This document shows, piece by piece, positions 12,684 to 64,000 of a stretch of DNA of 64,000 nt. The notes under the pieces were generated by a model. It searched no databases and was not told the origin of the DNA. It saw only the letters and a program-made list of their open reading frames with translations. This DNA comes from Trypanosoma brucei (Eukaryota), in the NCBI GenBank assembly GCA_000002445.1, contig CH464491.1:224001-288000 (forward strand), read 5' to 3'. Made by a program: the position numbers and the translations under genes. Numbering within the stretch: the first letter of the stretch is position 1; every line of letters starts with the position of its first letter.

Positions 12684-12998
12684 TGTGGGAGAGTGACGTA
12701 GCACGATCGTTTGTAGCATGTTTTTTTAAATTCGTTCCTTTCCGTGTGTGACAAGTGTTGTCTAGTGTGTATCGCTCGGTTCTGGTCGCGCTTGCATATA
12801 AGCTAGCAATATCGCAATTTCTTTGTCATTTATTGCGTCCCCCCTTTTCCCTCTTGAAACAGTGTCACTCGAGTGCGATCCTCTACTGCCTTTTTTTATT
12901 CGTTGTGAGGATTCTTCTCTTTCTCTCTTATTTACCGTTCTGGCTAGCTGTTGTGCACATCCACTATTTTTTTTTGAAGTGTGTGGGAGGCTCACGGC

Positions 12999-17857: not shown

Positions 17858-19069
<1,212 letters not shown>

Positions 19070-41536: not shown

Positions 41537-43368
41537 CGTATACGTGTATAAAAGAGGAAGTGTTATGCATGGCGCTGTTGAAGAGAAGAGAAGTTGGCGA
41601 TCATTCGAAAGCAAATTGTAGAAGCGCAGGCGGAAGGTGCTGACACAACTGCCATTAGTGGGAGCAGCTTGCTTCATATTCTTATCATTGTTTCCGTTCC
41701 GCCGGTTGTGGATAACACTTCTTGCCATTCTTTCCTTGTTTTTTGTGTGCGTTCACCCCACCGTTCTACTATTATTATTATTATTTCCTTTTTTGCGTGT
41801 TTTATTTTATTGTTTTCTCACTTGATCTTAGAGACCCACACTTTTGCTTCCTTTGGTTTGTGTGTGTGTTTTGAAAAAAAAAAAAGACCACTAGATAACT
41901 TAGTCTGCTTATGCGTGCATTAGTGTACGTGTTTGCAATCCCTTTTGATTTCGGTTTTCTTTTTTTTAATTTTGTTTTGTACCACGACACCTTGCGTATT
42001 CTTCGCGAGGACTTCTTTTTTTTGTTGTTGTTCATCCACCCCCATCAATCTCAGTGAATTTTTCTTCTGTAGCAATAACGGTGATAGAAATTATTATTAA
42101 ACATTTTGTTTCACCGGAGTGAGACTGGAGAATGCGAAGATGGGGAAGAGGAACTTCATGTATGGTACCGGAGGGCGATGTATTCCCCAGTTGTGGGTGC
42201 GTTACAATTTCCCCTTCTCTCTTACATGCGCATTCACTCCCCTGTTTGTTTGTATTTATTTTTGTGTCGTGTCATTAAGTTGAGGAAGAAAAAGGAAGAG
42301 AGAAGGGAGGATGGAGGGGCAAAGCATAAATAGCATTCGAATGGACTTTTGATGAAAGTTTGAGGAATTGTTAGATTAAGAAAAAAAGGGGGGGGGTACA
42401 ACACAGTTGGCGAGACAGGAAAGAGTGTGAGGTGGAGGTGAAAATATAAAGTAAATAAATAAATAATTTACCAAATTGGTCTATGAAGATGTGCTTTGCA
42501 CACTAACTCCTAAGATGGCTGATTGTGTTCGAGGGTGGGTGGGGGGATGGTACCGATGCTGATAAGGAGAGAGAAACGGATGGTAATTATACGAAAACCC
42601 CAGGGAAATGGAGAATATTGCTCCTCATCTGTTGTTAGAGCGTACCGGAGGAAGCTCCGTTAAGCGGTGCTAGTGTGTATTTTTGTAGCTTGTGACGCGT
42701 ATCAGCAGCGACAGTAGTTAATTAAAAAAAGAAAAAAAACAATGGAAAAAAGCGAGTGGAAGAGAAGAAGGGGCAGTTGTTCACTGGCGGTGAGCGAGCG
42801 CGTCTGTGCGCGAAGGCCGGTCTTGATTTCCCCTAATTCTTCTTTTTCTTTTAACAGTCACATGAAACTCCTTCTCTCTTTCTCCCTGCAAAGTGGAAAA
42901 AAAAACAAATAAACGCGACCTTTTAGACAGGCACCGTCGGTTGCCCCCTGCGTGGTGCCTATTAACACAATATGCCATGTCGCGCTCCAAGATTTCACCT
43001 TTAGATGTTCACGAGGCTATATGAGCACTTGTTCAAAATATATATTTCACACTACACAATCCTGCCCATCCTTTTTGTCGTTTTATTTTGTTTCTCCCTC
43101 ATCATTTACTTTCATTTGTGTTTGAACGTCTCCCCTTTTCGACTTGTTCCACCGCCGATAGACTGTCGTGTTGCCCCCACCTGTGCACGTGGTTGGCTTA
43201 CTTCGGTTACTCGATTATGTTATGCTATTTTATCTGCATATCAATTTATTTATTTTTAACCCTACAAAGCTGACGCCTTGTAGTTGCGACTGCGCTTGTT
43301 GGTTGGTGGGGGTAGCGGACCTGCTTAATAGAGGTAGCGATTTTAAAGGGAGGGGTGTGAGGCGTCTC

Positions 43369-44931
43369 ATGTCAGTTGCGCCGCCGGTCTCGGCGTCGTC
43401 AACGCAGTCCTCCTCTTTGTCAGAATCTGTGGCACTGCTCGTCCCTAAACAACTGCGACGGGTTTTATCGCGTGGTGGCGCCGAGGTGGTTGTCGAAAAG
43501 CGTACCGCAGGGAAGAAGCGGATGTTTGTGAACATTCCTGACGAATATGACCGAGAGGAAGGATGCCGTCGACATGCTTCTCATGCTGATGTGCACCGGC
43601 GGGCTCTTGAAGATTTGAGGTGGGCTCGGGAGACACTTTGGAATGACGAACGACTCCAACCCTATTTGTATACCTCAGATCACTTGACATGGCCTCCATT
43701 GACGCAATTGGCAAGTATGGTTAACCTGGCGTGGTCTGCGAGGGAAACAGACGCTGTGCCTGATCATTCTGCCGTCAGTGCGCTGAAAAAAGCGCTTGGT
43801 ATTATTCGACATGAGCTTCTTTACACAGGTTTGCACCCACTAAGGGAGGAGGCTCTTGCAGGGCAGCTGCTGGCGTTCACGTCAGAGGATGGCAATATCT
43901 CCGCATCTGGTAGTACATTACATGCAGTTGGTGGGTCAGAAGCACGATTCGGGGATACCGTGTGGTCCCTAGAACTGCACACTCCTTCTTTCAATATCGA
44001 CGATGTGCTGCGACTCTCTCTTACTGCGCGTATGCAGAAGGCGTGCATGGACGCTCTGCCGATCGGCCTTGCACCTGCTACCGTTGGGAACACATGGTCG
44101 GCAGTTTTGGCTGCGCACCGTCAAGCGGAGGAGAGGAGTTATCCAGGGCTTTTTCACAGCGTTCCACATTGTATTACATTGTTTGATGCTGAGGCTGCAC
44201 ATGTGGCGCGGATGGTTAGCGAAGCCGCTATCCAGGGGCGGCGTGTGCGGTTGCGTGTTGGTGTGTACCTCACAATGGTTCAGCGAAATGAGTTGTATGT
44301 ACTGTCAGGATCTTCTGCTTTAGGTGACGCTACTGACGATGAGTCGGAACTCCGTACCTCATTTGAAAGGGCGACGGGACGAAGCTATAAAGTGTGCCAG
44401 TCGTCGGGACTACTCTTGCGGATTCGTGGGAAAGAGGAGATTGAAGACGCTCTTCGGCTGCGCTTCCTGGGCCCCCTGGCTTCAAAGCATGAGCTTCTTG
44501 AGACTGCAACCCTTACCTCTCGTATTAGCAGTACGCATGTTGTAGTTAAGCATAATCCATTTGTTGTGATCCATGGTCCACGTGTTGCTGAGGGGTTTCC
44601 AGAGAATGCTGCAGCTCGCTCTGAGCTATTGGGTCTGCTTTCTTCGCGTGAAAGCACGGCCTCAAGTGGTCCCGCCCGGTTGGCCGTTGCGGAGGCCACA
44701 CCGTTAACAGTTCATGCGACTTCCGTTACACTCACCGGGGAGGACTTGCGGCAAGGCGTTGACGACGCGGTGTTGAAAACACTGTCTTCTGGACCCATGC
44801 CGAGGAGTGAATTGGCAGTACATTCGAATATGGCTCGTTTTCGTGACGCACCAAATTTCGAGGTGATGCTGAAGGACTCACTCAAGAGGATTGCTGAGTA
44901 CCATGGTAGAAAGTACCGTTTGAAGGAGTGA
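43369..44931 (+). CDS. Hypothetical protein (about 520 aa). ATG 43369 is the first ATG after the polypyrimidine tract and AG splice acceptor at 43212-43268. The track start 43168 is GTG, and the in-frame Met at 43222 lies inside that polyY tract.
   Basis: The ORF is continuous to 44931. The N-terminus is MSVAPPVSASSTQSS.... No recognisable family. The pyrimidine tract at 43212-43268 reads as a trans-splice signal rather than coding sequence. Confidence 0.55.
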   Translation: MSVAPPVSASSTQSSSLSESVALLVPKQLRRVLSRGGAEVVVEKRTAGKKRMFVNIPDEYDREEGCRRHASHADVHRRALEDLRWARETLWNDERLQPYLYTSDHLTWPPLTQLASMVNLAWSARETDAVPDHSAVSALKKALGIIRHELLYTGLHPLREEALAGQLLAFTSEDGNISASGSTLHAVGGSEARFGDTVWSLELHTPSFNIDDVLRLSLTARMQKACMDALPIGLAPATVGNTWSAVLAAHRQAEERSYPGLFHSVPHCITLFDAEAAHVARMVSEAAIQGRRVRLRVGVYLTMVQRNELYVLSGSSALGDATDDESELRTSFERATGRSYKVCQSSGLLLRIRGKEEIEDALRLRFLGPLASKHELLETATLTSRISSTHVVVKHNPFVVIHGPRVAEGFPENAAARSELLGLLSSRESTASSGPARLAVAEATPLTVHATSVTLTGEDLRQGVDDAVLKTLSSGPMPRSELAVHSNMARFRDAPNFEVMLKDSLKRIAEYHGRKYRLKE

Positions 44932-46591: not shown

Positions 46592-46875
46592 GGACTTGGT
46601 ATGACAGGGCGACATCTTTATTGTGTGTGCGTGGAAGGGTCACTGCCATCACGAGTAAATATATTAATGAGGGTTTGGTGGGTGAGGGGCGTCGCGGTAA
46701 GGGGCTTGCAGCGGTGGAACAGTATCCCTCCCCCCCCCCAAAAAAAGGAAAAATAACTGCATCTCCCTTTGACATTGAGTGTGCACAGCGGGTCTCTGTT
46801 TGTTTGCATGAACCGGAGTTCCTCCTTTCAACGAGCACTTTCGACCGGTTTGATGCTTCTTCAGGCACCCTTCTG

Positions 46876-46876
<1 letters not shown>

Positions 46877-46904
<28 letters not shown>
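46877..46904 (+). repeat. (TA)n microsatellite, about 14 units, downstream of the Brix gene.
   Basis: ctgctatatatatatatatatatatatatatacattt. Confidence 0.9.
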
Positions 46905-46907
<3 letters not shown>

Positions 46908-47122
46908 TTAGTTGCAGCACACACCAACCCGAAGCCACACATGTTGTACACATCGCTTGAATAACCAGTTACGGTTTACTAAAAGCCCCCTTATGCTATT
47001 CACTTTTGTTGTTTTCTGCTACAACTGTTGTTGCTCACTCCCGATTAACACGGTTTTCTTCCACATGTAGAACGAGAGGAGGCACTGAGGAGGAGGGTTT
47101 CCAGAAAGGAAGGTGATTCACT

Positions 47123-48586
47123 ATGTATTCTTCAGACAGGGTTCGGACCGTCATGGAGCAGCTCGCTTCTATGAATCCATACACGAACGCAAAAAGTTTA
47201 CCCGAAGTCCCGCGTCCCGACGAGTTATCGATTCCACGGAAGCTTTCTTCACGCCTTCAGATTCCGTATGTTCAGAATATACTCAACTCACTTTCGTACA
47301 ATTTTCTTCCTAATACATTTTTTTGTCTTGAGAAACACCGGTCGCTGCAGAGCATTCTTTTTACCTCGAAAGAAATCCTCGCAGAGGCGCTTCCGATCCG
47401 TTGCCTTGAAGCTACATTTGTGGGACTCTATCTCACACAGGATCTGAAGGATGTTGACCGCATTCCCCTTTCGTTTAAATCGCGTGCGAAGGGGCGTGCA
47501 TATCATCATATTGTTCTCGTAATACGCTGCAATTCCATGTACGGGGCGGTGGGACTTAGTCGGAAGTCCACACTTATGGACAAACCCCTAATTTACAATG
47601 GTCTTTACCAACTAATTATGGAGTACAAAAAGCAGTACGAGGCAATAGGACACGAACTGGTGGACTTCAAGTTGGGATTATGTGTCAATCATAAGCGAGA
47701 TTCGCGGAAAGCCCCGTGCTGGCGCTACATAGCGGTTAAACTTGGTAGGTCGACCGCTCCTTCGACTTCCACATCTCCACGCCCACAGGAACAGCAAGAA
47801 GAGGTAAGTACGAATGAGGTCGATGTATCACTTATATCTAATAGTGGGGGTTGTAGCTGTGGGGACGGCATTGAAAAAATGTTGAAATGTTATTCAGATT
47901 TGCTTTGTAGGCTCTCAGAAGAATATGACAACCTTTTGACATCCTATTCACGTGGAGCATCGAACAATAATCAACAGGTGTGCTTGAAAGACCTACACGA
48001 CATGGATAATAGCTCCGCAAAGGTGGAGAATAGGAGAAGGTTGGAGGAGCTACGTCAGGGTCGCTCGCCGTGCGGTTCTGTTGGAACGCGGTGCAAGAAA
48101 CGCAGCGCGTCCCGGTCGGTTTCGAAGAAGCGCGCGGTATCCCAAAATGATGTACCGTCGACAGATAGGTCAAGGGTGGTTAGGCTTTCTTCCGCAGTTG
48201 CTACCAAGAAAACTGCTCGAAGAGAAAAGGCTGCTGCTGCAAACTATCGACAGCCCGCAGCGTCTGACCTTAAACAACCCCGTGAGTTTTCGTCTGCGTC
48301 AGGCGAGAAAGGTGATGGCCAGTTACCGCACGTTTCTAGGGGTACTAATGGCAATATATCCCCAGAGCGAGCGTGCCGGGCGGCAGAGGAAGGGTGCGCT
48401 GCGAACCCTGGGGAAGAGGTTACGGGAGAGCGTCAGAGTGTGCGTAATCCACTCTTATCTCTGGCACTCCCACTGTTGGATTCGAAAGGTGGTGAGTTAG
48501 GCCTGACAACTTGCCAGGCAACTGACCGCTGGATGTTGCCAAATTCAGCAAAGGGTGCCAATATTAACGATGTGGGCCGATCGTAG
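47123..48586 (+). CDS. VASH: Vasohibin-like tubulin tyrosine carboxypeptidase (transglutaminase-like Cys protease fold) with a long low-complexity C-terminal tail, 487 aa.
   Basis: ...EALPIRCLEATFVGLYLTQ...RIPLSFKS...YHHIVLVIRCNSMYGAVGLSRKSTLMDKPL...GLCVNH aligns with the vasohibin core (EALPIKCLEAVILGIYLTN...RFPISFKT...FRHIVLGV...YGALGMSRREDLMYKP...KLGQSVSHD). The catalytic Cys (PIRCLEA) and His (YHHIVL) are conserved. Confidence 0.7.
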   Translation: MYSSDRVRTVMEQLASMNPYTNAKSLPEVPRPDELSIPRKLSSRLQIPYVQNILNSLSYNFLPNTFFCLEKHRSLQSILFTSKEILAEALPIRCLEATFVGLYLTQDLKDVDRIPLSFKSRAKGRAYHHIVLVIRCNSMYGAVGLSRKSTLMDKPLIYNGLYQLIMEYKKQYEAIGHELVDFKLGLCVNHKRDSRKAPCWRYIAVKLGRSTAPSTSTSPRPQEQQEEVSTNEVDVSLISNSGGCSCGDGIEKMLKCYSDLLCRLSEEYDNLLTSYSRGASNNNQQVCLKDLHDMDNSSAKVENRRRLEELRQGRSPCGSVGTRCKKRSASRSVSKKRAVSQNDVPSTDRSRVVRLSSAVATKKTARREKAAAANYRQPAASDLKQPREFSSASGEKGDGQLPHVSRGTNGNISPERACRAAEEGCAANPGEEVTGERQSVRNPLLSLALPLLDSKGGELGLTTCQATDRWMLPNSAKGANINDVGRS

Positions 48587-49679
48587 TTTTGTGTTTGTGA
48601 TCACTCCCAGCGGCAAAGGGTGTGTGTGTGTGTGTGCGAGGTGTGCGTGTAGAATGTCCTCTTAATTCTCTTCATTTCATCGTTTACACTTCTTTGCTGC
48701 TTTGTATCTTTAATTATGATAGGCGACGGCAGAGGATTAACGGCCTGATGGGTGTTGTGGCGCCAGTTCTTAGAGGAGGGGTTGTTTACATGGTCGTTTT
48801 TTTTTTTTTTGGACGTTTGGCGGAGAAACTCCCAATCAGAGGAATGTATGGATGGACGCGGCCTGTATTTTATGTGATGCGGTCACCGGATTACCTTCTT
48901 GCATCTTCTTCGTATTTTTCTGAAGGTCTTAGGGGACCGCCGAGTCGTTTGTACCTTTTTATTTTTATATGTTAACTCCGTGTTATGTCAAATCTTTACC
49001 TTTCGAACACTTCGTCATTCTTTTTTTCTTTTTTTCACTGATAACCCAATTATCATTCTGCTTAACGGCGCTCCTCGGCTCCACTCCTCGTTTTGCTTTC
49101 GTCCACCTCTCCTTTCGCTTCCTTTTTAGTTTGTTTGAGTTCACCGTCAGGAGCTTACCGCTGTGGTGGAGGGGCGGAACTGCAGTGGAAGAAACTTGAT
49201 AGCACTGTCCTATTAGTGAATACTAAATTATTGTTTTTACCTCGTATTCGAAAAAAAAAGGTATGAGGAACGTGGGTTACCTTGGAGACATGTGAGGACG
49301 CAATGAAGTGAAACACGATCCCAAGAAATGATGAATAAGGGATGAATAAAAACGCCTGGAGTAAGGGGTTTATCACCTGCTGCTGTTTCACTCTCTTCAA
49401 GCGGTAGGGTTTTTTTTCTTTTTACTTTTACCTCTTGTTGTTCCTTCTTCAATGTGCCGTCCAACTGATTCCACACCACGTGCATGGGACTTTGCATTTA
49501 TCATGCATCTCCTTTTAAATTTCCCTCACGTTGTGGTTCTCTTTCCCTTCTTCTTTGTTGTGTTGTGTTGTGCCCATCTTCCTTTGTTACTAAGTTGATC
49601 AGCGTCTTCTTTCTTTTTGTGTTTTTGTGTGTGTGTTTAGTTGTTACCGCAACTGCCTGGTTGTACAAGACACCGGCGA

Positions 49680-51734
49680 ATGACAACGCATTGGGTTCGT
49701 GACTATGGGGCAATAGTGACTAGTGCGGCAACGTTCTTTCTATGTGCTTCGTATCAGAGAGTACTTCTGCGTCATGGCGATGCTTTAATCCCCAGCGAAA
49801 AGAAGGAAAAAGGAGGAGCGACATCGTCGTTCTTTCGTGAGTTCATGCAGGTTGCCAGAATAGCACTACCCACTGTTTGGTGCAAGGAAGCTTTGGGTAC
49901 TTTTGTTTTTGTCTTACTCTTCTTTGTTTTGGCGGTGATTCGGGCACTAACGTCCGAAGCAAACGGCAGGGTGTTGAAGTCGATGACGGAGGGGACGGGT
50001 GGAACCCGTCTGCGCAACTTCACGCACACCTTACTTCTTCGTACGGCGCTTCACTTGTTGTCGTCTGTTTGTAGCAGTTGTGTGGAGCACCTTCGAACAT
50101 GGTTGATAGGTTGCTACCGTGTGAGACTTAGTAAGCACTTTCAAGAGCGGTATTACAGCCAGCTTGTGTTTTACAGAGCCGCTGTGATAGATAAGCGGCT
50201 GGAGGCAGTGGACTCGGTAGTCACGACGTATTGCGCTGAATTTGCCGAACATTTTACGGAACTCCCCTATTACTTCGTGCTTCCGGCACTCGGTTCTGCT
50301 ACATCTATGGTCGCCCTCATACGACGGGTTGGTGCCGGTGCATCTGCGGCTGCGTGTGGTTTAGTTTTGGCGTCTGTCCTTCTGATGAAGAAGTTTTCAC
50401 CGCCTTTTGGGAAAATATACGCGTCTCTGCTGTCAAAGGAGGATGCTTACAGAAGAATGCTTTCAAATAGTTTGAGTAATGTAGAAAACATTGCTTTGCA
50501 CAGGGGTGGTGAACACACTAGGAAGAAGCTTGACACCCAACTCGGCGTGCTGAAGGGTTATCTCGATCATTTTGCGCTCTCCCGTGGACACTTTAACCTC
50601 CTTGAACTGTCTTTTGCAACGACGCTGCGCAATATTGCTAGCATTATTGTCTTTGGTGATGCACTGCGAAAAGAGAACAAATCCACGAGTGATATTTATG
50701 TGGAGTTGCTGTACTTGAGGGATCTCAGTAAAAGTGTGACAGACGTTGTGTCAAACTTCCGTGAGATCTCTCACTTATCAACCTATACGCTAAAACTTGC
50801 GGAGTTTGACAGGACACTGAAGGATATTGAGGGGGACACATGCGATACGTTTCCGTGTGTGGCGAGCATACCAGATGTTGGAACGGTTGTTCCAACAGTC
50901 GTTTCTCCTAGCGTACCCATTGCCGGGGCCTTGAGCTTTCCACTTTTTACCTTTACCAATGTGAAGCTGAAAACCCCAACTGGTCACGTGCTTTTCGAGA
51001 ACTTGAATCTTACCATCCAAAACGATCAGGATTGGGTGATTACAGGAAACAATGGGTCAGGTAAGACGTCACTTCTCCGTCTCATATCTGGTCTCTGGCG
51101 GGCCTGCGAAGGAGACATTACAATGAGCAGCTGTGTGAAGTTGTTGTTCGCCCCGCAGGAAAGTTACGTGGTGCCCCATTGCACGCTCGTGGAGCAGATT
51201 CTTTACCCCAAGATTATAACATCTCTGAATGAGGGGGACATTGCATGTATAAAGGAAGCCATTAGTCTCGCCGGTGCCGAGTCTGTTGTTGAGGTGCTCG
51301 GCGGCTTTGAGAGTCCGGCAGTGGGCTGCGATCTTTCAAACGTTGATGAAACCTACGATTGGTCTTCCCTGAGCGGTGGGCAGAAACAACGTGTTAATAT
51401 GGCCCGTGTGTTCTACCAAGTCTTGCAAGCGGACCGGAGTCGGGAAATCCCGGTGGTGTTGTTGGATGAGGCTACATCTATGATGGATGACACGGAAGAG
51501 AAAGTGATGCTTAACTTACGGAAACTCAATGCGCGCATGATATCTGTCACGCATCGTGAACAAGTTGTTAAGCACCACACGCACGTGTTGAGAGCCCTTC
51601 CTGGTGGTCGTTGGATGACAACCAAAGTAACCCAATATGTTGGCAGTGACGATGTTGTAACGCAAGGAATCTCTTCGGTTGGTGGGTCCTCCAATGCCGA
51701 AGGTGTGGGAGTTGATTTGCACAGGGGTTTCTAA
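49680..51734 (+). CDS. ABC half-transporter, subfamily D (peroxisomal/glycosomal ALDP-type; GAT-like), about 684 aa. The first ATG is at 49680. The track start 49641 is TTG.
   Basis: The N-terminal transmembrane domain carries the ABCD-typical EAA-like region. The Walker A is GNNGSGKTSLLRLISGLW, the signature is LSGGQKQRVNMARVFY, and the Walker B is VVLLDEATSMMD. The TMD-then-NBD order and length are as in ABCD proteins. Confidence 0.8.
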   Translation: MTTHWVRDYGAIVTSAATFFLCASYQRVLLRHGDALIPSEKKEKGGATSSFFREFMQVARIALPTVWCKEALGTFVFVLLFFVLAVIRALTSEANGRVLKSMTEGTGGTRLRNFTHTLLLRTALHLLSSVCSSCVEHLRTWLIGCYRVRLSKHFQERYYSQLVFYRAAVIDKRLEAVDSVVTTYCAEFAEHFTELPYYFVLPALGSATSMVALIRRVGAGASAAACGLVLASVLLMKKFSPPFGKIYASLLSKEDAYRRMLSNSLSNVENIALHRGGEHTRKKLDTQLGVLKGYLDHFALSRGHFNLLELSFATTLRNIASIIVFGDALRKENKSTSDIYVELLYLRDLSKSVTDVVSNFREISHLSTYTLKLAEFDRTLKDIEGDTCDTFPCVASIPDVGTVVPTVVSPSVPIAGALSFPLFTFTNVKLKTPTGHVLFENLNLTIQNDQDWVITGNNGSGKTSLLRLISGLWRACEGDITMSSCVKLLFAPQESYVVPHCTLVEQILYPKIITSLNEGDIACIKEAISLAGAESVVEVLGGFESPAVGCDLSNVDETYDWSSLSGGQKQRVNMARVFYQVLQADRSREIPVVLLDEATSMMDDTEEKVMLNLRKLNARMISVTHREQVVKHHTHVLRALPGGRWMTTKVTQYVGSDDVVTQGISSVGGSSNAEGVGVDLHRGF

Positions 51735-55197: not shown

Positions 55198-58100
55198 ATG
55201 GCGTGTCAAGAGGTAAATAGTGAAGTTCCTGACAGCGATGTAGTTTTCCATGACACCATTTTTATGAGAAACAACAAACACGTCTCGGAGCAATGGATTC
55301 GTATTGGCGAATTGTACCCCAATGGTGCGAAGGAATCATTGCTCCCGGAGACGTTTGCACGCGAACAGTTCGGACAAGGAAGTCACTATGAGTGCTTCAT
55401 GCTTTCTGCCCTCGCCACTTTAGTAAAATTCCCCGACATCATTCGGAACTGCTTCGTGTCGAGGAATGTGCGGCGTGACGGGAGGTACACTTTTCAGTTC
55501 TTTCGTGACAAGGAATGGGTGAAGGTTGAAATTGATGACTCTGTTATGCTTGAGGATGATGAAGTTTTGTTCATCCGATCACCCACTAGTCATTGGTGGC
55601 CGCTACTGTTTGAGAAGGCTTATGCGAAATTCTACACCAGCTACGACAATTTGGAGGGTTGTACCTTACAGGAGGCGTACCATGACTTAACTGGCAACCC
55701 CGTGCTCAACATCCCCATGGACGCGAGGCTTGCCAAGGCTGCAGGTGTGGATGTGACTGGAGGTCAGTATTGGCTTGACCTCGCACAGAAGCTGCAATCC
55801 GGCCAGTTTGTTGGTTCGCTGCTGACGAGGGAAACGGACCTTGAGTCGATGGGTTTGCAGAGTGAGCAACAATACGGGATACTAGAGATTTTTTCGCTAA
55901 CTGGGACATCATCTGTAAGCGACATTGTGATTCACCTATACAACCCATTCGAGGACGAGGAATTCACGTACAAAGGCCCGCTGAACAGTAAGGACACGGA
56001 GTGGACCCCCAAACTCCGTGAAAAGTATAACGTGGATGATACGCACTCCATATTTCTTCCGCTACACGTTGCCCTGAAGATCGTAAATTCGGTGCAACTT
56101 TGCTACATATCCCCTATTGATGGTGACGCGACGTATTTTGATGATGAGTGGAAGGGTGAAACTGCGGGAGGGAACCCCACGAGTGTAACATGGCGCAAGA
56201 ACCCCCTATACTGCGTCAGGAACGCTGGGATCAACCCCGTGGAACTGGTTGTCGTGATTAAGCAGAAGGATCAACGTCATCTTTGGACATCAGAAGATGA
56301 TGAACTGATGTACAAAAGGTGTGGCATTGTTGTTGTTCAGAGTACCACAGTCACACAAATACCGACATATTTTGTAACAGGGAACAATCACAAAGCAATA
56401 CACAAGAGTTTGTTCCTAAACTCTCGTGAAGTGTCCAGTTTCGTTCGGATACCACCTAATTCCTTGTGCTACCTTGTACCTTCTTGCATGAAGAAGGGAG
56501 CGGAGAGTGCATTTACGCTCGCACTGTACCGGATGAAGCACCAAAATTATACGGAGTTCAATGTTAGTCGACTTGCTCTGCCGAAATTGCTGTGGCACAA
56601 TCCTATCCAAGAGAAACTCCAACTTCAAATGTTCACAAAGGATAGAAGGGATTTTTACGTCGATATACCCACTGACATTCACATTTTGATGCATCAAGAA
56701 AAACCGTTTGTAAGTGAGAAGACCGGTGGTGATGCTATGGTTCAGGATTACGTTGGTGTCTACCTTTATGATGACACGGACCGTAAGATTGGAGGTGTGC
56801 ACGCTGCGACGAATTTCAGGGAAACAAGTGTCTTGCATCGCCTTCCTCGTAGTGGTCGTTATGCTATTTCAATTACGTGTCCCCGGGCAAGTGGTGAAGT
56901 ACCCATTGCTCTCACAATTGTTGGTTCTCCTGATGCTAATGTTCGTATTGTTGAGGCTCCTGATGATGCCTCCATGTTTGATGATGAGGATGATATTGCA
57001 GAGGGTGATGAGGATGCTACTGTTTCTAATCCCATTGACTACATTCCTGTTGCTGGTGGAGGGCAGGTGTTCACTGAGGTACCCGATAGTACGGTCCCAT
57101 TTGAAGATAAACGTTTCATGGTTGATAATAAGATTATGACGAATGAACCGTGGATCCACATTGGTGACCTTTATCCTGAGGGAAAGACGCGCTCACTTTT
57201 GCCGGAGCGTCTGAGTCGTGAGCAGTTTGAGCAGGGTGAACACTTCGAGTGCTGTTGTCTGACCGCTTTTGCAGCGCTGGTGGAGCACCACCCCAACGTA
57301 ATTCGTGACGCGTTTGTGACGAAGGCTGTACGACGTGACGGACGGTACACGTTCCGGTTCCACCGCTACGGTCAGTGGGTGAAGGTGGAGATTGATGATC
57401 GTATTCCCCTTCTTGGTGGGAAAACTTTATTCTGTCGATCATCTGATGGTTATTGGTGGCCACTACTACTAGAGAAGGCGTATGCTAAGTTCTACACACT
57501 ATACCAAAATATTGAGGGATGTACGCTGCGGGAACTGTTTTACGACCTAACAGGGCTTCCTGTGCTTAGCATTCCGATGGAGTTGAAACTCGCGAAGGCT
57601 GTACTGTGTGATGTTGATGATGTGAGTTTTTGGGTTGAGCTCAGTGAGGGTCTGAAGGATTGTGCGTGTGCTGCCGTTGCACGCCCCGGTTTCGATGACA
57701 CCCTTGGTTTGTCCAATGGGCAAGAGTACGCTGTCCTTGATGTGGTATCGTTAACGGATGGTGAGGCCTCTTCCATATCTGATCTTGTTGTAAAACTTCA
57801 TAATCCGTTTCTGGAGACTGAGTACAAAGGCCCTATGAATGCAAGCGATGCTGCGTGGTCGTCTGAGCTGCGTACCCGTCTATGTCCGGAGCGACGGGAT
57901 ACTATCTACATTCCCGTGGAAGTTTTCTGCAATGCATTTCTCACTGTGGAGAAAGTTATGGTGCGTGGTCTTATTGTTCCCGGGTGGCAATTCAACAGTG
58001 AATGGGGTGAGGGCACGAACGGTGGCAATCCAACACTTGTGACGTGGCGTGAGAACCCCATTTACGTTGTGCAGAACACTGCGGATACCCCGTTACAGAT

Positions 58101-61100
58101 TATTGCAATGATTGGGCAACCTGATCAGCGTCGCGTGCTACACCTTCTCCCCGAGCAAGAGGTAAACTACGTTCAATGTGGGTTGTCGCTTGCCAAGAGT
58201 ATTAAGGGTGAATCGATCCCGACATACTTGCTGACACCCAATAGTCATGTTTTGATTCATAAGGGCCGTTTCTTTTCTTACCGTGAAGTAGCTGATGTTA
58301 TTGTTGTTCCGGGGAATAGCCTCACTTTTCTCGTTCCAAGCGCGATGTTTCGTGACAAAACGAAGTTTCTTCTCTCGTACTGGTACTCTAGTGCGAACGA
58401 CAGGAACAGTGTTACAATTGAGCGTCTTAATTTGGGTGTTGCGCGGCATCTTCCAGCCATTGCCCATCTCACTGTCAAAGAGAGGGTGAGGGAGCAAGTG
58501 GATTTTATTGTCGATGTTCCCACTGACGTTCATATCCTTCTTCGTCAAGAAAAACCCTGCCACGGTGACAGTGTTTCAAATGCCTTGACAGATGATTTTC
58601 TTGCCATGTATTTGTATAATTCTGAAGATGATCAACTCAGTGGTGTTGTGACCGCGACCAACTACAGGGAGATGGGAATAGTTCATCACCTCTCCGAAGG
58701 GGGGAGATATGTAATTTACGTTGTTTGCCCTCGTGCTGAGGGTGAGGTTCCTTTGAGAATAGAAATTGTCGCTATGCAGTCGGCCCAGGTTCGCACAGTG
58801 GAAGCATTACCCTTGTGCAAATCAATCTTGCAGGTGGAAAAAGAGCTAAAGCTGAGTACTGGGTCCTTGCCATACTCACCACTCCTTATAAGCGAAGGGG
58901 ATCTCAAAAATTTCTCGGGGCGACTATCGGACAACTCTATGCGGTTGGAGAGTTCCAGTGACCCTGACTTATCTTTCCTTGGAGCCGAGGTGGAAGGAAT
59001 TCCCACCCTGGATCTCACTCTGATGAGCGACTCTTCATTTTCTGAGATGGCACGTGAGCGCATGCAATTAAAGCGGGATCCCATTGCTAATGCGAGTCGT
59101 TTGGCTGAGGTTGAAGATAGTATGGTGGCACGTGCGAATGCTATTGCCAAGGAAATGCATTTGAGAGAGCGGCGATATCTGAACCCTGAGCCTGAGGGTG
59201 TCCCCCTTGAGTTGCTTCCTTTAAACGAGGACGAAGTTGTGAGTGAGAAGGAGGACCGCCTCCGTGCGCTGAATCGTAAGGAGCAGAAGGACGAGAAACT
59301 GTTACGGAGTCTTGAGGACGTGATAGCGGACCGTGTACACGAGATCGCGAGGGAGCTGAAGGTGAGTGAACGTGATCTGTTCCTTGATCCCACTCCAGGA
59401 GGTTTCCCTGTAGCGCAGCTTCCGCTGGACGAAGACGATGTGTTTCATTCACTCGAAGTGGAGCGACTGCAACTGCGACTGCGTCAGGATTCCCTTGCTA
59501 GCAAAGAAAGAATTGCTGAACTGGAAAACATGATGAATTGTAGGACTACGGAGCTCATCGACAAAATGAAAGAAGAGATTAGGAAGTTTCTTGACCCCAC
59601 CCCACTAGGAATACCACTTGAAGAACTAAAACTGGACGAACACGACAATTATGTTGCAAAAGAGATAAGCCTAATTGGAATGATAAGAAAAGGGAAAAAA
59701 GAATCACAGGAAGCAATTTCAATTCGGGAACAGTTACTTCAAATAGAATACGCTGTTGCCAAGGAACACTTAAACAACTTTAGGATACAGTACCTCGGAG
59801 ACGACATTGAGGGTCGCCAACCGAACGAATTAAACTTAGAAGAAGAAGAAACTTATATGCAGATGGAGAGAAAATTGATTGAATACTACAACAGTAATCA
59901 ACGTAACAGCGAAGAAGCGCAGAAAATAAGAGTAAATCTACTTCACAAAGCTACAAAAGCATCAAAGCATTTAAATCGATCCGAGAGAAAAAACTACATT
60001 AAGAGAGACAGACTCGAGATTTCAATATCAAACATTCCGCTTGATGACAACGAACAGTTCACAACATTAGAAGCGGAACGAATAAGAAAAAAAAGAAATA
60101 AAAAAAATTCAGAGGTTGAACAAATAGAAATGGAACTCAACAATATAGCACAACAGCTAGCTAAACTGAAAGCATCCGATAGCCGCAGCTTCCTTGATCC
60201 TATGCCAGAAGGAGTGCCGTTGAGTGAGCTTGAATTGGACAAGGATGAGAAGTTCAGCACCATGGAAGAGGAGCGTCGTAAGCTTATTGCTGAGGATCGT
60301 GAAGATAATGCAACACGCATTGCTGAATTAGAAGCAGCAATGAACGAGTATTCACATGAGCTTGCTAAACTGAAAGCATCCGATAGCCGCAGCTTCCTTG
60401 ATCCTATGCCAGAAGGAGTGCCGTTGAGTGAGCTTGAATTGGATAAGGATGAGAAGTTCAGCACCATGGAAGAGGAGCGTCGTAAGCTTATTGCTGAGGA
60501 TCGTGAAGGTAATGCTGCGCGCATTGCTGAATTAGAAGCAGCAATGAACGAGCATTCACATGAGCTTGCTAAACTGAAAGCATCCGATAGCCGCAGCTTC
60601 CTTGATCCTATGCCAGAAGGAGTGCCGTTGAGTGAGCTTGAATTGGATAAGGATGAGAAGTTCAGCACCATGGAAGAGGAGCGTCGTAAGCTTATTGCTG
60701 AGGATCGTGAAGATAATGCAACACGCATTGCTGAATTAGAAGCAGCAATGAACGAGTATTCACATGAGCTTGCTAAACTGAAAGCATCCGATAGCCGCAG
60801 CTTCCTTGATCCTATGCCAGAAGGAGTGCCGTTGAGTGAGCTTGAATTGGATAAGGATGAGAAGTTCAGCACCATGGAAGAGGAGCGTCGTAAGCTTATT
60901 GCTGAGGATCGTGAAGGTAATGCTGCACGCATTGCTGAACTAGAAGCTGCAATGAACGAGCATTCACATGAGCTTGCTAAACTGAAAGCATCCGATAGCC
61001 GCAGCTTCCTTGATCCTATGCCAGAAGGAGTGCCGTTGAGTGAGCTAGGATTGGATAAGGATGAGAAGTTCAGCACCATGGAAGAGGAGCGTCGTAAGCT

Positions 61101-64000
61101 TATTGCTGAGGATCGTGAAGGTAATGCAACACGCATTGCTGAATTAGAAGCAGCAATGAACGAGCATTCACATAAGCTTGCTAAACTGAAAGCATCCGAT
61201 AGCCGCAGCTTCCTTGATCCTATGCCAGAAGGAGTGCCGTTGAGTGAGCTTGAATTGGATAAGGATGAGAAGTTCAGCACCATGGAAGAGGAGCGTCGTA
61301 AGCTTATTGCTGAGGATCGTGAAGGTAATGCTGCACGCATTGCTGAACTAGAAGCTGCAATGAACGAGCATTCACATGAGCTTGCTAAACTGAAAGCATC
61401 CGATAGCCGCAGCTTCCTTGATCCTATGCCAGAAGGAGTGCCACTAAGTGAGCTTGAATTGGATAAGGATGAGAAGTTCAGCACCATGGAAGAGGAGCGT
61501 CGTAAGCTTATTGCTGAGGATCGTGAAGGTAATGCTGCACGCATTGCTGAATTAGAAGCAGCAATGAACGAGCATTCACATGAGCTTGCTAAACTGAAAG
61601 CATCCGATAGCCGCAGCTTCCTTGATCCTATGCCAGAAGGAGTGCCGTTGAGTGAGCTTGAATTGGACAAGGATGAGAAGTTCAGCACCATGGAAGAGGA
61701 GCGTCGTAAGCTTATTGCTGAGGATCGTGAAGGTAATGCTGCACGCATTGCTGAATTAGAAGCAGCAATGAACGAGCATTCACATGAGCTTGCTAAACTG
61801 AAAGCATCCGATAGCCGCAGCTTCCTTGATCCTATGCCAGAAGGAGTGCCGTTGAGTGAGCTTGAATTGGATAAGGATGAGAAGTTCAGCACCATGGAAG
61901 AGGAGCGTCGTAAGCTTATTGCTGAGGATCGTGAAGGTAATGCTGCACGCGTTGCTGAACTAGAAGCTGCAATGAACGAGCATTCACATGAGCTTGCTAA
62001 ACTGAAAGCATCCGATAGCCGCAGCTTCCTTGATCCTATGCCAGAAGGAGTGCCGTTGAGTGAGCTAGGATTGGATAAGGATGAGAAGTTCAGCACCATG
62101 GAAGAGGAGCGTCGTAAGCTTATTGCTGAGGATCGTGAAGGTAATGCTGCACGCATTGCTGAACTAGAAGCAGCAATGAACGAGCATTCACATGAGCTTG
62201 CTAAACTGAAAGCATCCGATAGCCGCAGCTTCCTTGATCCTATGCCAGAAGGAGTGCCGTTGAGTGAGCTTGAATTGGATAAGGATGAGAAGTTCAGCAC
62301 CATGGAAGAGGAGCGTCGTAAGCTCATTGCTGAGGATCGTGAAGGTAATGCTGCACGCATTGCTAGACTTGAGGAGAGGATGAACGAACTTTCCCGTGAA
62401 CTCGCAAGAATGAAGTTGAAGGATCGCAGCTTCCTTGATCCTATGCCAGAAGGAGTGCCACTAAGTGAGCTTGAATTGGATAAGGATGAGAAGTTCAGCA
62501 CCATGGAAGAGGAGCGTCGTAAGCTCATTGCTGAGGATCGTGAAGGTAATGCAACACGCATTGCTGAATTAGAAGCAGCTATGAACGAGCATTCACATGA
62601 GCTTGCTAAACTGAAAGCATCCGATAGCCGCAGCTTCCTTGATCCTATGCCAGAAGGAGTGCCGTTGAGTGAGCTTGAATTGGATAAGGATGAGAAGTTC
62701 AGCACCATGGAAGAGGAGCGTCGTAAGCTCATTGCTGAGGATCGTGAAGGTAATGCAACACGCATTGCTGAATTAGAAGCAGCAATGAGCGAGCATTCAC
62801 ATGAGCTTGCTAAACTGAAAGCATCCGATAGCCGCAGCTTCCTTGATCCTATGCCAGAAGGAGTGCCACTAAGTGAGCTTGAATTGGATAAGGATGAGAA
62901 GTTCAGCACCATGGAAGAGGAGCGTCGTAAGCTTATTGCTGAGGATCGTGAAGGTAATGCTGCACGCATTGCTGAACTAGAAGCAGCTATGAACGAGCAT
63001 TCACATGAGCTTGCTAAACTGAAAGCATCCGATAGCCGCAGCTTCCTTGATCCTATGCCAGAAGGAGTGCCGCTAAGTGAGCTTGAATTGGATAAGGATG
63101 AGAAGTTCAGCACCATGGAAGAGGAGCGTCGTAAGCTTATTGCCGAGGATCGTGAAGGTAATGCTGCACGCATTGCTGAACTAGAAGCAGCGATGAACGA
63201 GCATTCACATGAGCTTGCTAAACTGAAAGCATCCGATAGCCGCAGCTTCCTTGATCCTATGCCAGAAGGAGTGCCGTTGAGTGAGCTTGAATTGGACAAG
63301 GATGAGAAGTTCAGCACCATGGAAGAGGAGCGTCGTAAGCTTATTGCTGAGGATCGTGAAGGTAATGCTGCACGCATTGCTGAACTAGAAGCAGCAATGA
63401 ACGAGCATTCACATGAGCTTGCTAAACTGAAAGCATCCGATAGCCGCAGCTTCCTTGATCCTATGCCAGAAGGAGTGCCGTTGAGTGAGCTTGAATTGGA
63501 TAAGGATGAGAAGTTCAGCACCATGGAAGAGGAGCGTCGTAAGCTTATTGCTGAGGATCGTGAAGGTAATGCTGCACGCATTGCTGAACTAGAAGCAGCA
63601 ATGAACGAGCATTCACATGAGCTTGCTAAACTGAAAGCATCCGATAGCCGCAGCTTCCTTGATCCTATGCCAGAAGGAGTGCCGTTGAGTGAGCTAGGAT
63701 TGGATAAGGATGAGAAGTTCAGCACCATGGAAGAGGAGCGTCGTAAGCTTATTGCTGAGGATCGTGAAGGTAATGCAGCACGCATTGCTGAACTAGAAGC
63801 AGCAATGAACGAGCATTCACATGAGCTTGCTAAACTGAAAGCATCCGATAGCCGCAGCTTCCTTGATCCTATGCCAGAAGGAGTGCCGTTGAGTGAGCTT
63901 GAATTGGATAAGGATGAGAAGTTCAGCACCATGGAAGAGGAGCGTCGTAAGCTTATTGCTGAGGATCGTGAAGGTAATGCTGCACGCATTGCTGAATTAG
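55198..64000 (+). CDS. ClpGM6: Giant calpain-like protein with two tandem calpain-type cysteine-protease-like domains followed by a 68-aa (204-bp) tandem repeat array (ClpGM6 / GM6-antigen type). It is 5'-partial only in the sense that the ORF runs off the window end. More than 2,930 codons are open.
   Basis: It is not in the supplied ORF track (no stop in the window). There is an ATG at 55198 after an A-rich leader and polyY tract (54880-54925). I translated frame 1 from 55198 by hand and found no stop to 64000. The two homologous about 640-aa units begin ...WIRIGELYPNGAKESLLPE...QGSHYECFMLSAL...RDGRYTFQFF...WWPLLFEKAYAKFYTSY... and ...WIHIGDLYPEGKTRSLLPE...QGEHFECCCLTAF...RDGRYTFRFH...WWPLLLEKAYAKFYTLY.... 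These are the calpain domain II landmarks (QGxxGDCW -> QGxHxECx; WVxLLEKAYAK). Then come about 19 near-identical 68-aa repeats (...ELAKLKASDSRSFLDPMPEGVPLSELELDKDEKFSTMEEERRKLIAEDREGNAARIAELEAAMNEHSH...). Confidence 0.85.
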   Translation, partial: MACQEVNSEVPDSDVVFHDTIFMRNNKHVSEQWIRIGELYPNGAKESLLPETFAREQFGQGSHYECFMLSALATLVKFPDIIRNCFVSRNVRRDGRYTFQFFRDKEWVKVEIDDSVMLEDDEVLFIRSPTSHWWPLLFEKAYAKFYTSYDNLEGCTLQEAYHDLTGNPVLNIPMDARLAKAAGVDVTGGQYWLDLAQKLQSGQFVGSLLTRETDLESMGLQSEQQYGILEIFSLTGTSSVSDIVIHLYNPFEDEEFTYKGPLNSKDTEWTPKLREKYNVDDTHSIFLPLHVALKIVNSVQLCYISPIDGDATYFDDEWKGETAGGNPTSVTWRKNPLYCVRNAGINPVELVVVIKQKDQRHLWTSEDDELMYKRCGIVVVQSTTVTQIPTYFVTGNNHKAIHKSLFLNSREVSSFVRIPPNSLCYLVPSCMKKGAESAFTLALYRMKHQNYTEFNVSRLALPKLLWHNPIQEKLQLQMFTKDRRDFYVDIPTDIHILMHQEKPFVSEKTGGDAMVQDYVGVYLYDDTDRKIGGVHAATNFRETSVLHRLPRSGRYAISITCPRASGEVPIALTIVGSPDANVRIVEAPDDASMFDDEDDIAEGDEDATVSNPIDYIPVAGGGQVFTEVPDSTVPFEDKRFMVDNKIMTNEPWIHIGDLYPEGKTRSLLPERLSREQFEQGEHFECCCLTAFAALVEHHPNVIRDAFVTKAVRRDGRYTFRFHRYGQWVKVEIDDRIPLLGGKTLFCRSSDGYWWPLLLEKAYAKFYTLYQNIEGCTLRELFYDLTGLPVLSIPMELKLAKAVLCDVDDVSFWVELSEGLKDCACAAVARPGFDDTLGLSNGQEYAVLDVVSLTDGEASSISDLVVKLHNPFLETEYKGPMNASDAAWSSELRTRLCPERRDTIYIPVEVFCNAFLTVEKVMVRGLIVPGWQFNSEWGEGTNGGNPTLVTWRENPIYVVQNTADTPLQIIAMIGQPDQRRVLHLLPEQEVNYVQCGLSLAKSIKGESIPTYLLTPNSHVLIHKGRFFSYREVADVIVVPGNSLTFLVPSAMFRDKTKFLLSYWYSSANDRNSVTIERLNLGVARHLPAIAHLTVKERVREQVDFIVDVPTDVHILLRQEKPCHGDSVSNALTDDFLAMYLYNSEDDQLSGVVTATNYREMGIVHHLSEGGRYVIYVVCPRAEGEVPLRIEIVAMQSAQVRTVEALPLCKSILQVEKELKLSTGSLPYSPLLISEGDLKNFSGRLSDNSMRLESSSDPDLSFLGAEVEGIPTLDLTLMSDSSFSEMARERMQLKRDPIANASRLAEVEDSMVARANAIAKEMHLRERRYLNPEPEGVPLELLPLNEDEVVSEKEDRLRALNRKEQKDEKLLRSLEDVIADRVHEIARELKVSERDLFLDPTPGGFPVAQLPLDEDDVFHSLEVERLQLRLRQDSLASKERIAELENMMNCRTTELIDKMKEEIRKFLDPTPLGIPLEELKLDEHDNYVAKEISLIGMIRKGKKESQEAISIREQLLQIEYAVAKEHLNNFRIQYLGDDIEGRQPNELNLEEEETYMQMERKLIEYYNSNQRNSEEAQKIRVNLLHKATKASKHLNRSERKNYIKRDRLEISISNIPLDDNEQFTTLEAERIRKKRNKKNSEVEQIEMELNNIAQQLAKLKASDSRSFLDPMPEGVPLSELELDKDEKFSTMEEERRKLIAEDREDNATRIAELEAAMNEYSHELAKLKASDSRSFLDPMPEGVPLSELELDKDEKFSTMEEERRKLIAEDREGNAARIAELEAAMNEHSHELAKLKASDSRSFLDPMPEGVPLSELELDKDEKFSTMEEERRKLIAEDREDNATRIAELEAAMNEYSHELAKLKASDSRSFLDPMPEGVPLSELELDKDEKFSTMEEERRKLIAEDREGNAARIAELEAAMNEHSHELAKLKASDSRSFLDPMPEGVPLSELGLDKDEKFSTMEEERRKLIAEDREGNATRIAELEAAMNEHSHKLAKLKASDSRSFLDPMPEGVPLSELELDKDEKFSTMEEERRKLIAEDREGNAARIAELEAAMNEHSHELAKLKASDSRSFLDPMPEGVPLSELELDKDEKFSTMEEERRKLIAEDREGNAARIAELEAAMNEHSHELAKLKASDSRSFLDPMPEGVPLSELELDKDEKFSTMEEERRKLIAEDREGNAARIAELEAAMNEHSHELAKLKASDSRSFLDPMPEGVPLSELELDKDEKFSTMEEERRKLIAEDREGNAARVAELEAAMNEHSHELAKLKASDSRSFLDPMPEGVPLSELGLDKDEKFSTMEEERRKLIAEDREGNAARIAELEAAMNEHSHELAKLKASDSRSFLDPMPEGVPLSELELDKDEKFSTMEEERRKLIAEDREGNAARIARLEERMNELSRELARMKLKDRSFLDPMPEGVPLSELELDKDEKFSTMEEERRKLIAEDREGNATRIAELEAAMNEHSHELAKLKASDSRSFLDPMPEGVPLSELELDKDEKFSTMEEERRKLIAEDREGNATRIAELEAAMSEHSHELAKLKASDSRSFLDPMPEGVPLSELELDKDEKFSTMEEERRKLIAEDREGNAARIAELEAAMNEHSHELAKLKASDSRSFLDPMPEGVPLSELELDKDEKFSTMEEERRKLIAEDREGNAARIAELEAAMNEHSHELAKLKASDSRSFLDPMPEGVPLSELELDKDEKFSTMEEERRKLIAEDREGNAARIAELEAAMNEHSHELAKLKASDSRSFLDPMPEGVPLSELELDKDEKFSTMEEERRKLIAEDREGNAARIAELEAAMNEHSHELAKLKASDSRSFLDPMPEGVPLSELGLDKDEKFSTMEEERRKLIAEDREGNAARIAELEAAMNEHSHELAKLKASDSRSFLDPMPEGVPLSELELDKDEKFSTMEEERRKLIAEDREGNAARIAEL
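60150..64000 (+). repeat. A 204-bp (68-codon) tandem repeat array, about 19 copies in the window and continuing past the window end. It is in-frame coding sequence of the ClpGM6-like gene.
   Basis: The string cttgctaaactgaaagcatccgatagccgcagc recurs at 60361, 60565, 60769 ... 63823 with an exact spacing of 204 bp. One unit (about 62341-62541) is 201 bp and diverged. There are a few recurrent SNVs between units. Confidence 0.95.

What the first reader, a model, noticed from the sequence alone, without database searches (positions are those of the whole stretch)
47123..48586. Vasohibin-type tubulin detyrosinase with an extended low-complexity tail
The N-terminal 220 aa conserve the vasohibin catalytic core, including Cys (PIRCLEA) and His (YHHIVL). 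The remaining about 260 aa are Ser/Arg/Ala-rich and unlike metazoan VASH. It lies a few genes upstream of the flagellum and cytoskeleton-associated ClpGM6-like gene, so this locus encodes two cytoskeleton-modifying and associated factors. In trypanosomes the tyrosination state of alpha-tubulin marks new microtubules and the flagellum, so the tail may provide localisation or regulation.
Basis: partly seen in the sequence, partly recalled or inferred. Interest (0 to 1): 0.6.

Follow-up and report, generated by a model that had tools for sequence, protein, structure and literature searches.

The report
Known trypanosome tubulin detyrosinase TbVASH

Summary

This is TbVASH. Published work shows it is the only tubulin carboxypeptidase of T. 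brucei, acts on alpha- and beta-tubulin, works without SVBP, and is killed by C94A. The finding is therefore correct but already known.

Two corrections apply. First, the tail is not uniformly low-complexity. After a variable loop (aa 212-244) comes a helical module (aa 245-329) and a basic patch (aa 323-337). Both are conserved in all kinetoplastid VASH proteins and are predicted to pack on the core. Only about aa 338-487 is predicted disordered. Second, the gene three places downstream is ClpGM6 itself, but the window is one mixed polycistronic unit, so the proximity has no functional meaning.

The one untested idea is that the module replaces SVBP in cis.

The parts
47123..48586 (+). TbVASH coding sequence (487 codons plus TAG)
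   Evidence: The ORF is listed. The product is identical to P0033, which is XP_828199.1 / EAN79087.1 / Q387E4 of T. brucei TREU927.
47123..47755 (+). Catalytic core, aa 1-211 (transglutaminase-like cysteine protease fold)
47402..47404 (+). Catalytic Cys94 (TGC)
   Evidence: It aligns with VASH1 C169 and VASH2 C158 and is invariant in 31 sequences. The published C94A mutant (TGC to GCG) is dead (PMC12714142).
47507..47509 (+). Catalytic His129
   Evidence: It aligns with VASH1 H204 and VASH2 H193 and is invariant. It lies on the predicted strand E125-136.
47558..47563 (+). Ser146 and Arg147 (third triad residue and a substrate-binding Arg)
   Evidence: They align with VASH2 S210 and R211 and are invariant.
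47756..47854 (+). Hypervariable loop, aa 212-244
   Evidence: There is no conservation, and the length runs from about 30 aa to about 760 aa among orthologues. pLDDT is about 41-58. The V228A polymorphism lies here.
47855..48109 (+). Conserved kinetoplastid-specific helical module, aa 245-329 (H246-276, H282-287, H296-311)
   Evidence: L254, L260, D290, E302, N303, R305, R306, S315 and P316 are at least 90% conserved. pLDDT is 73-96. The pTM values imply it is packed on the core. A profile of the module finds only VASH proteins among 1.84 billion representatives.
48089..48133 (+). Basic patch RCKKRSASRSVSKKR, aa 323-337 (candidate nuclear localisation signal or microtubule-binding patch)
   Evidence: The KKR is nearly invariant. 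Residues 323-370 carry 16 K/R against 3 D/E. A putative NLS is reported in the C-terminal extension of LmVASH, and LmVASH is nuclear and on the spindle (PMC11761321).
48134..48583 (+). Predicted disordered distal tail, aa 338-487, with short conserved islands (QLPxV around aa 400-404, LPLLDSK around aa 449-455)
   Evidence: pLDDT is below 50. There are no Pfam or PDB matches. Identity among Trypanosoma species is 0.03-0.38 with small peaks. The S390L and I481V polymorphisms lie here.
55198..64000 (+). Context only: 5' part of ClpGM6 (calpain-like domains plus 68-aa GM6 repeats from 60155), running off the window
   Evidence: Peptidase_C2 matches at 238.5 bits, with Calpain_III and DUF7623 repeats. 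The repeat has a 204-bp period and 18.9 copies. The published antibody peptides KASDSRSFLDPMPE and ERRKLIAEDREGN are both present.

Best explanation
The gene is TbVASH, the single vasohibin of Trypanosoma brucei. It is a transglutaminase-like cysteine carboxypeptidase. [quoted passage not shown] It acts on microtubules and needs no SVBP cofactor. These points are shown by published experiments on this protein. The architecture below is inferred here. The catalytic core (aa 1-211) is followed by a hypervariable loop (212-244). Next comes a conserved helical module (245-329) that folds back onto the core; its first helix probably takes the place of metazoan helix alpha7. A conserved basic patch (323-337) is a plausible nuclear-import or microtubule-binding element. 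The last roughly 150 aa form a disordered tail that carries a few short conserved motifs.
Against: Nothing argues against the identification. For the inferred architecture, model coordinates could not be inspected, so where the module docks on the core is unknown. The alignment used for modelling has only 31 sequences. The module has no detectable sequence similarity to metazoan VASH alpha7, to any PDB chain, or to any Pfam family. The roles proposed for the basic patch and the distal tail are guesses.
Confidence: 0.97

Rival explanations
1. It is a vasohibin-like pseudoenzyme or a protease with a different substrate, not a tubulin detyrosinase.
For: Trypanosomatids lack SVBP, which mammalian VASH needs (PMC11761321). 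The N-terminal region is shorter than in VASH1 and VASH2: only 24 aa precede the aligned part, and there are three predicted helices before alpha5 rather than four.
Against: The catalytic triad and the substrate-groove residues are invariant. Knockout removes all detyrosinated alpha- and beta-tubulin, and the C94A mutant does not rescue (PMC12714142).
Confidence: 0.01
2. The whole C-terminal 276 aa is a featureless low-complexity tail that acts only as a flexible localisation or regulation appendage.
For: The composition is Ser/Arg/Ala-rich. The tail alone has no Pfam or PDB match. pLDDT is below 50 for aa 341-487. The PNAS paper also calls the extension poorly conserved.
Against: Residues 245-337 are conserved from Trypanosoma to Leishmania and more distant kinetoplastids, with residues that are at least 90% conserved. 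They are predicted helical at high confidence and, from the pTM values, in one frame with the core. They are kept next to the catalytic domain despite linkers of 30 to 760 aa.
Confidence: 0.15
3. VASH and ClpGM6 form a functionally linked cytoskeletal locus, co-regulated or co-evolved because they are neighbours.
For: ClpGM6 lies three genes downstream on the same strand. Both products concern the flagellum or the cytoskeleton.
Against: An ABC half-transporter and an unannotated 545-aa ORF lie between them. Upstream genes include Brix, PfkB, DnaJ, ATG9, Nup98-96, AAA, RRM and isocitrate dehydrogenase. All are on one strand with a constant positive GC skew. This is a typical trypanosomatid polycistronic unit, where gene order is not organised by function (established knowledge of kinetoplastid transcription).
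Confidence: 0.03

Closest known systems
TbVASH, Trypanosoma brucei vasohibin (XP_828199.1 / Q387E4; van der Laan et al. 2019 Cell Rep 29:4159; Thein et al. 2025, PMC12714142)
   Same: It is the same protein, identical over all 487 residues. Cys94 in the CLEA motif and its TGC codon are the same as in the published C94A construct.
   Different: Nothing differs. T. b. gambiense and one Logan assembly differ only at V228A, S390L and I481V.
LmVASH, Leishmania mexicana vasohibin (Corrales et al. 2025, PMC11761321)
   Same: It is the orthologue. The catalytic domain is about 58-60% identical. It is autonomous, acts on alpha- and beta-tubulin, and has the same conserved post-core helical module and basic patch.
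   Different: LmVASH is longer (about 620-635 aa), with a much larger variable loop between core and module and different distal-tail motifs (PPLTPRN, SSxSDLFS). It is reported to modify tubulin dimers as well, whereas TbVASH is reported to be restricted to microtubules.
Human and mouse VASH1 and VASH2 in complex with SVBP (for example PDB 6J4S, 6WSL, 6JZC; Zhou et al. 2019, PMC6642083)
   Different: The mammalian enzymes need SVBP, which bundles with helices alpha1 and alpha2. TbVASH has a shorter N-terminus, no SVBP, and a kinetoplastid-specific helical module after a variable loop. It also cleaves beta-tubulin.

Membership tests
Vasohibin family (Pfam PF14822; transglutaminase-like cysteine peptidases) | Significant match to the family profile above the curated threshold | tested here: met
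   The match is 179.6 bits against a cut-off of 24, E = 8.6e-53, over aa 17-211 and profile positions 35-229 of 245.
Vasohibin family (Pfam PF14822; transglutaminase-like cysteine peptidases) | [quoted passage not shown] | tested here: met
   Cys94, His129 and Ser146 sit at a constant offset of 75 from VASH1 and 64 from VASH2 in the phmmer alignments (residue numbers from PMC6642083). All three are invariant in 31 sequences.
Vasohibin family (Pfam PF14822; transglutaminase-like cysteine peptidases) | VASH fold: a helical N-terminal domain with Cys at the tip of alpha5, and a C-terminal domain beta1-beta2-beta3-alpha6-beta4-beta5-alpha7 | tested here: met
Vasohibin family (Pfam PF14822; transglutaminase-like cysteine peptidases) | Basic residues of the tubulin-tail groove (VASH2 K135, K157, R211, R212) | tested here: met
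   The aligned residues are K71, R93, R147 and K148. R147 is invariant, and K71 and R93 are at least 90% conserved.
Vasohibin family (Pfam PF14822; transglutaminase-like cysteine peptidases) | Tubulinyl-Tyr carboxypeptidase activity | not testable with these tools
   This is shown in the literature for this protein by knockout, rescue and C94A (PMC12714142). Van der Laan 2019 is cited but is not held in the library.
SVBP-dependent VASH (metazoan type) | An SVBP partner and the alpha1/alpha2 helices that bundle with it | tested here: not met
   Only 24 aa precede the part that aligns with VASH2 residue 94 onwards, and there is one predicted helix (H3-17) where VASH2 has alpha1 and alpha2. The window has no SVBP-like sequence. 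The literature reports no SVBP homologue in T. brucei or Leishmania. The whole genome could not be scanned here.
SVBP (Pfam CCDC23-like), considered for the tail module | Sequence similarity of the conserved tail module to SVBP | tested here: not met
   hhalign of module profile A3 against human SVBP gives probability 0.06%. The SVBP sequence was verified against 6J4O_B. The module profile searched against all PDB chains hits neither SVBP nor VASH.
ClpGM6 (downstream neighbour, context only) | Calpain-like domains followed by near-identical 68-aa GM6 repeats | tested here: met
   Peptidase_C2 matches at 238.5 bits, with Calpain_III. The tandem repeat has a 204-bp period at 96% identity. Both published antibody peptides are present.

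The most novel reading that the evidence does not exclude
The conserved helical module of the 'tail' (aa 245-329), found only in kinetoplastid-type VASH proteins, is a built-in third subdomain. It packs on the catalytic core and does in cis what SVBP and the missing N-terminal helix do in trans in animals. This would explain why trypanosomatid VASH is soluble and fully active on its own. In this reading the adjoining basic patch (aa 323-337) takes the enzyme into the nucleus for spindle detyrosination during closed mitosis.
Probability: 0.25. Interest if true: 0.4.

Novelty: already known. Interest (0 to 1): 0.1.

Why it matters
The gene matters biologically. It controls the tubulin tyrosination state of the trypanosome corset, flagellum and spindle. 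It cross-talks with polyglutamylation, and its Leishmania orthologue is needed for virulence. All of this is published, so the finding adds nothing new on function. The only added value here is a refined domain map: core, hypervariable loop, conserved helical module, basic patch and disordered tail. That map gives a concrete and cheap truncation experiment to test how a vasohibin became independent of SVBP.

Tried and rejected
(1) I guessed the DOI of van der Laan 2019 and fetched an unrelated paper. The correct PubMed id is not held in the library, so that study is cited only through PMC11761321 and PMC12714142.
(2) A search for a TriTrypDB gene identifier linked to vasohibin found nothing. 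I therefore give only the NCBI and UniProt accessions.
(3) The tail alone (aa 212-487 and 241-487) was searched against Pfam and PDB. It gave no family and only a chance-level hit, E = 0.8.
(4) The tail-module profile was searched against PDB. The best hits were an LXG-domain protein (E = 0.023) and a designed coiled coil, which I judged to be generic helical similarity. No VASH or SVBP chain was hit.
(5) hhalign of the module against human SVBP and against a copepod VASH2 gave no similarity. Homology to SVBP is therefore rejected, and equivalence to alpha7 rests only on the structural inference.
(6) P0039 from the representative search is a repeat-driven false positive, with many Pfam 'hits' and no significant stretches.
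(7) An operon-like link to ClpGM6 is rejected because the neighbourhood is functionally mixed.
(8) Model coordinates are not exposed by the tools. The docking site of the module could not be examined, and only the pTM arithmetic was available.

Full report
**Observation.**
The window holds an ATG-to-TAG ORF at exactly 47123..48586 on the + strand, encoding 487 aa. PIRCLEA is at aa 91-97, with Cys94 encoded by TGC at 47402-47404. YHHIVL is at aa 127-132, with His129 at 47507-47509. The start codon is credible because every orthologue starts within a few residues of it. A polypyrimidine tract followed by AG lies about 50 nt upstream.

**Family test.**
- Pfam Vasohibin (PF14822) matches aa 17-211 with E = 8.6e-53 and 179.6 bits against a gathering score of 24.
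- phmmer against PDB sequences finds VASH2 (E = 1.2e-36) and VASH1 (about 2e-31), and essentially nothing else.
- In those alignments Cys94, His129 and Ser146 sit at a constant offset from VASH1 C169/H204/S221 and VASH2 C158/H193/S210. The VASH2 numbering and mutational data come from PMC6642083.
- The groove residues K135, K157, R211 and R212 of VASH2 correspond to K71, R93, R147 and K148.
- All three triad residues are invariant across 31 sequences, which include a metazoan VASH2.
- An AlphaFold2 model has the VASH secondary-structure order.

**Identity and prior knowledge.**
The protein is identical over its full length to the T. brucei brucei TREU927 entry XP_828199.1 / EAN79087.1 / UniProt Q387E4. 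That sequence is also found in T. equiperdum. The T. b. gambiense protein differs at three tail positions. This is TbVASH.

From Thein et al. 2025 (PMC12714142):
- Deleting both alleles abolishes detyrosinated alpha- and beta-tubulin.
- The whole cytoskeleton and the axoneme become tyrosinated.
- A re-expressed copy rescues the phenotype.
- A C94A mutant (TGC to GCG in the 'CLEA' motif) is catalytically dead.
- The authors state that this confirms van der Laan et al. [quoted passage not shown]

From Corrales et al. 2025 (PMC11761321):
- No SVBP homologue exists in T. brucei or Leishmania.
- The single T. brucei vasohibin is an autonomous detyrosinase restricted to microtubules.
- LmVASH localises to the flagellum, nucleus and spindle.
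- The C-terminal extension carries a putative nuclear localisation signal and 'may contain specific motifs' for regulation or targeting.

So the function, the cofactor question and even the speculation about the tail are already in print. The primary 2019 paper is not in the library, so I cite it only through these two papers.

**The tail.**
The composition claim is right: Ser 13.4%, Arg 9.4% and Ala 8.7% over aa 212-487. The tail is not uniform, and its entropy is only slightly below that of the core. Alignment of kinetoplastid orthologues gives this layout:
- **Hypervariable loop, aa 212-244.** It is not conserved.
- **Conserved block, aa 245-337.** Its consensus is LLxxYxxLLxxISEQY ... CLxDL ... 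ENxRRL ... SPL ... KKRxAxR ... KKR. L254, L260, D290, E302, N303, R305, R306, S315 and P316 are conserved in at least 90% of sequences.
- **Distal region, aa 338-487.** It is poorly conserved, with only short islands within Trypanosoma: QLPxV near aa 400 and LPLLDSK near aa 450.

AlphaFold2 predicts helices H246-276, H282-287 and H296-311, plus H318-329 in the full-length run. Their pLDDT is 73-96. The loop scores about 41-58, and aa 341-487 score below 50.

Coordinates are not exposed, so I used the pTM values as a proxy for packing. pTM 0.64 x 487 aa gives about 312 residue-equivalents, and pTM 0.79 x 335 aa gives about 265. Both clearly exceed the 211-aa core, which could contribute at most 0.43 and 0.63 respectively. 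The model therefore places the module in one rigid frame with the core. This is an inference from predictions built on a shallow 31-sequence alignment.

**Distribution of the module.**
A profile of the module was searched against 1.84 billion representative proteins and returned 15 hits.
- The named ones are trypanosomatid VASH proteins.
- Three of the new ones (P0035, P0037, P0038) carry a Vasohibin domain N-terminal to the module.
- P0036 lacks the domain but shares its C-terminus with P0037, so it looks like a truncated gene model.
- P0039 is a repeat artefact.
- The linker between core and module ranges from about 30 aa to about 760 aa in P0037, yet the module is retained. This argues that it works together with the catalytic domain.

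**The cis-SVBP idea.**
Zhou et al. showed that SVBP bundles with VASH2 helices alpha1 and alpha2. They also showed that VASH2 lacking those helices is soluble without SVBP but only about 20% active. TbVASH has a shortened N-terminus: 24 aa and one helix precede the region that aligns with VASH2 residue 94 onwards. A reasonable hypothesis is that the kinetoplastid module supplies in cis the stabilising or tail-positioning role of alpha1, alpha2 and SVBP. The module has no sequence similarity to SVBP: hhalign probability is 0.06%, and the SVBP sequence was verified against 6J4O_B. I give this idea a probability of about 0.25.

The basic patch RCKKRSASRSVSKKR (aa 323-337; 16 K/R against 3 D/E over aa 323-370) is conserved in position. 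It is a plausible nuclear localisation signal or microtubule-binding element. This fits the reported nuclear and spindle localisation of LmVASH.

**Context.**
The downstream gene starting at 55198 has calpain domains (Peptidase_C2 at 238.5 bits) and a 204-bp (68-aa) tandem repeat from 60155 to the window end. The repeat contains both peptides used to raise the anti-ClpGM6 antibody in Hayes et al. 2014 (PMC4121973). It is therefore ClpGM6 itself, not merely 'ClpGM6-like'.

An ABC half-transporter (49641-51734) and an unannotated ORF (53178-54815) lie between VASH and ClpGM6. Upstream genes encode Brix, PfkB, DnaJ, ATG9, Nup98-96, AAA, RRM, TSNAXIP1-like, CAND1-like, isocitrate dehydrogenase and TPR proteins. 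All are on the + strand with a positive GC skew throughout. This is a normal trypanosomatid polycistronic unit, in which neighbours are not functionally grouped. That statement rests on established knowledge and was not tested here. The proximity carries no information.

**Verdict.**
However, this is the already characterised TbVASH, so novelty is 'already known' and interest is low. The refined tail map and the cis-SVBP hypothesis are the only additions, and they need the structural superposition and truncation experiments listed under next steps.

Noticed in passing
window 59994-63989 (- strand): A 1331-aa ORF lies antisense to the GM6 repeats of ClpGM6. It is open only because the 204-bp repeat has no stop codon in that frame. 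Its Pfam 'DUF5581' score (E = 2.6e-23, with no significant stretch) is the sum of repeated weak matches, so this is an artefact and not a gene.
   Followed up: partly
window 55198-64000 (+ strand): The 5' part of ClpGM6 has two calpain-type domains, DUF7623 repeats and at least 18.9 near-identical 68-aa GM6 repeats, and it runs off the window end. Hayes et al. note that this repeat array is collapsed in the reference assembly, so the copy number here is probably an underestimate.
   Followed up: partly
window 46592-47122: The Brix-VASH intergenic region contains a C10A7 run (about 46728-46746) and a (TA)n microsatellite (about 46878-46905). It also has a polypyrimidine tract (about 47003-47062) followed by AG about 50 nt before the VASH ATG, which is probably the trans-splice acceptor region.
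   Followed up: no
window 25751-30412 (+ strand): This is a Nup98-96-type nucleoporin gene with an autopeptidase S59 domain and a Nup96 domain. Its 5' third has the highest GC content in the window (0.587 at 26-28 kb) and carries long overlapping ORFs on both strands (25770-26969 on + and 26180-27355 on -). That pattern is typical of a biased repeat region, probably FG repeats.
   Followed up: no
window 39354-41297, 43168-44931, 53178-54815, 12981-14309, 17858-19069 (+ strand): Five sizeable ORFs in the same polycistronic unit have no Pfam match at E <= 0.001 or 1e-5. They are presumably kinetoplastid-specific hypothetical proteins.
   Followed up: no
P0037 (1619 aa) and P0036 (855 aa): One VASH homologue from public assemblies has a Ser/Pro/Thr-rich insertion of about 760 aa between the catalytic domain and the conserved helical module, followed by a further tail of about 540 aa. 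P0036 shares its C-terminus but lacks the catalytic domain, so it is probably a truncated gene model. The source organisms were not identified.
   Followed up: partly
TbVASH aa 228, 390 and 481 (window 47804-47806, 48290-48292, 48563-48565): The only differences between this protein and the T. b. gambiense or Logan versions are V228A, S390L and I481V. All three fall in the non-conserved loop or the distal tail, which fits relaxed constraint there and purifying selection on the core and the module.
   Followed up: yes
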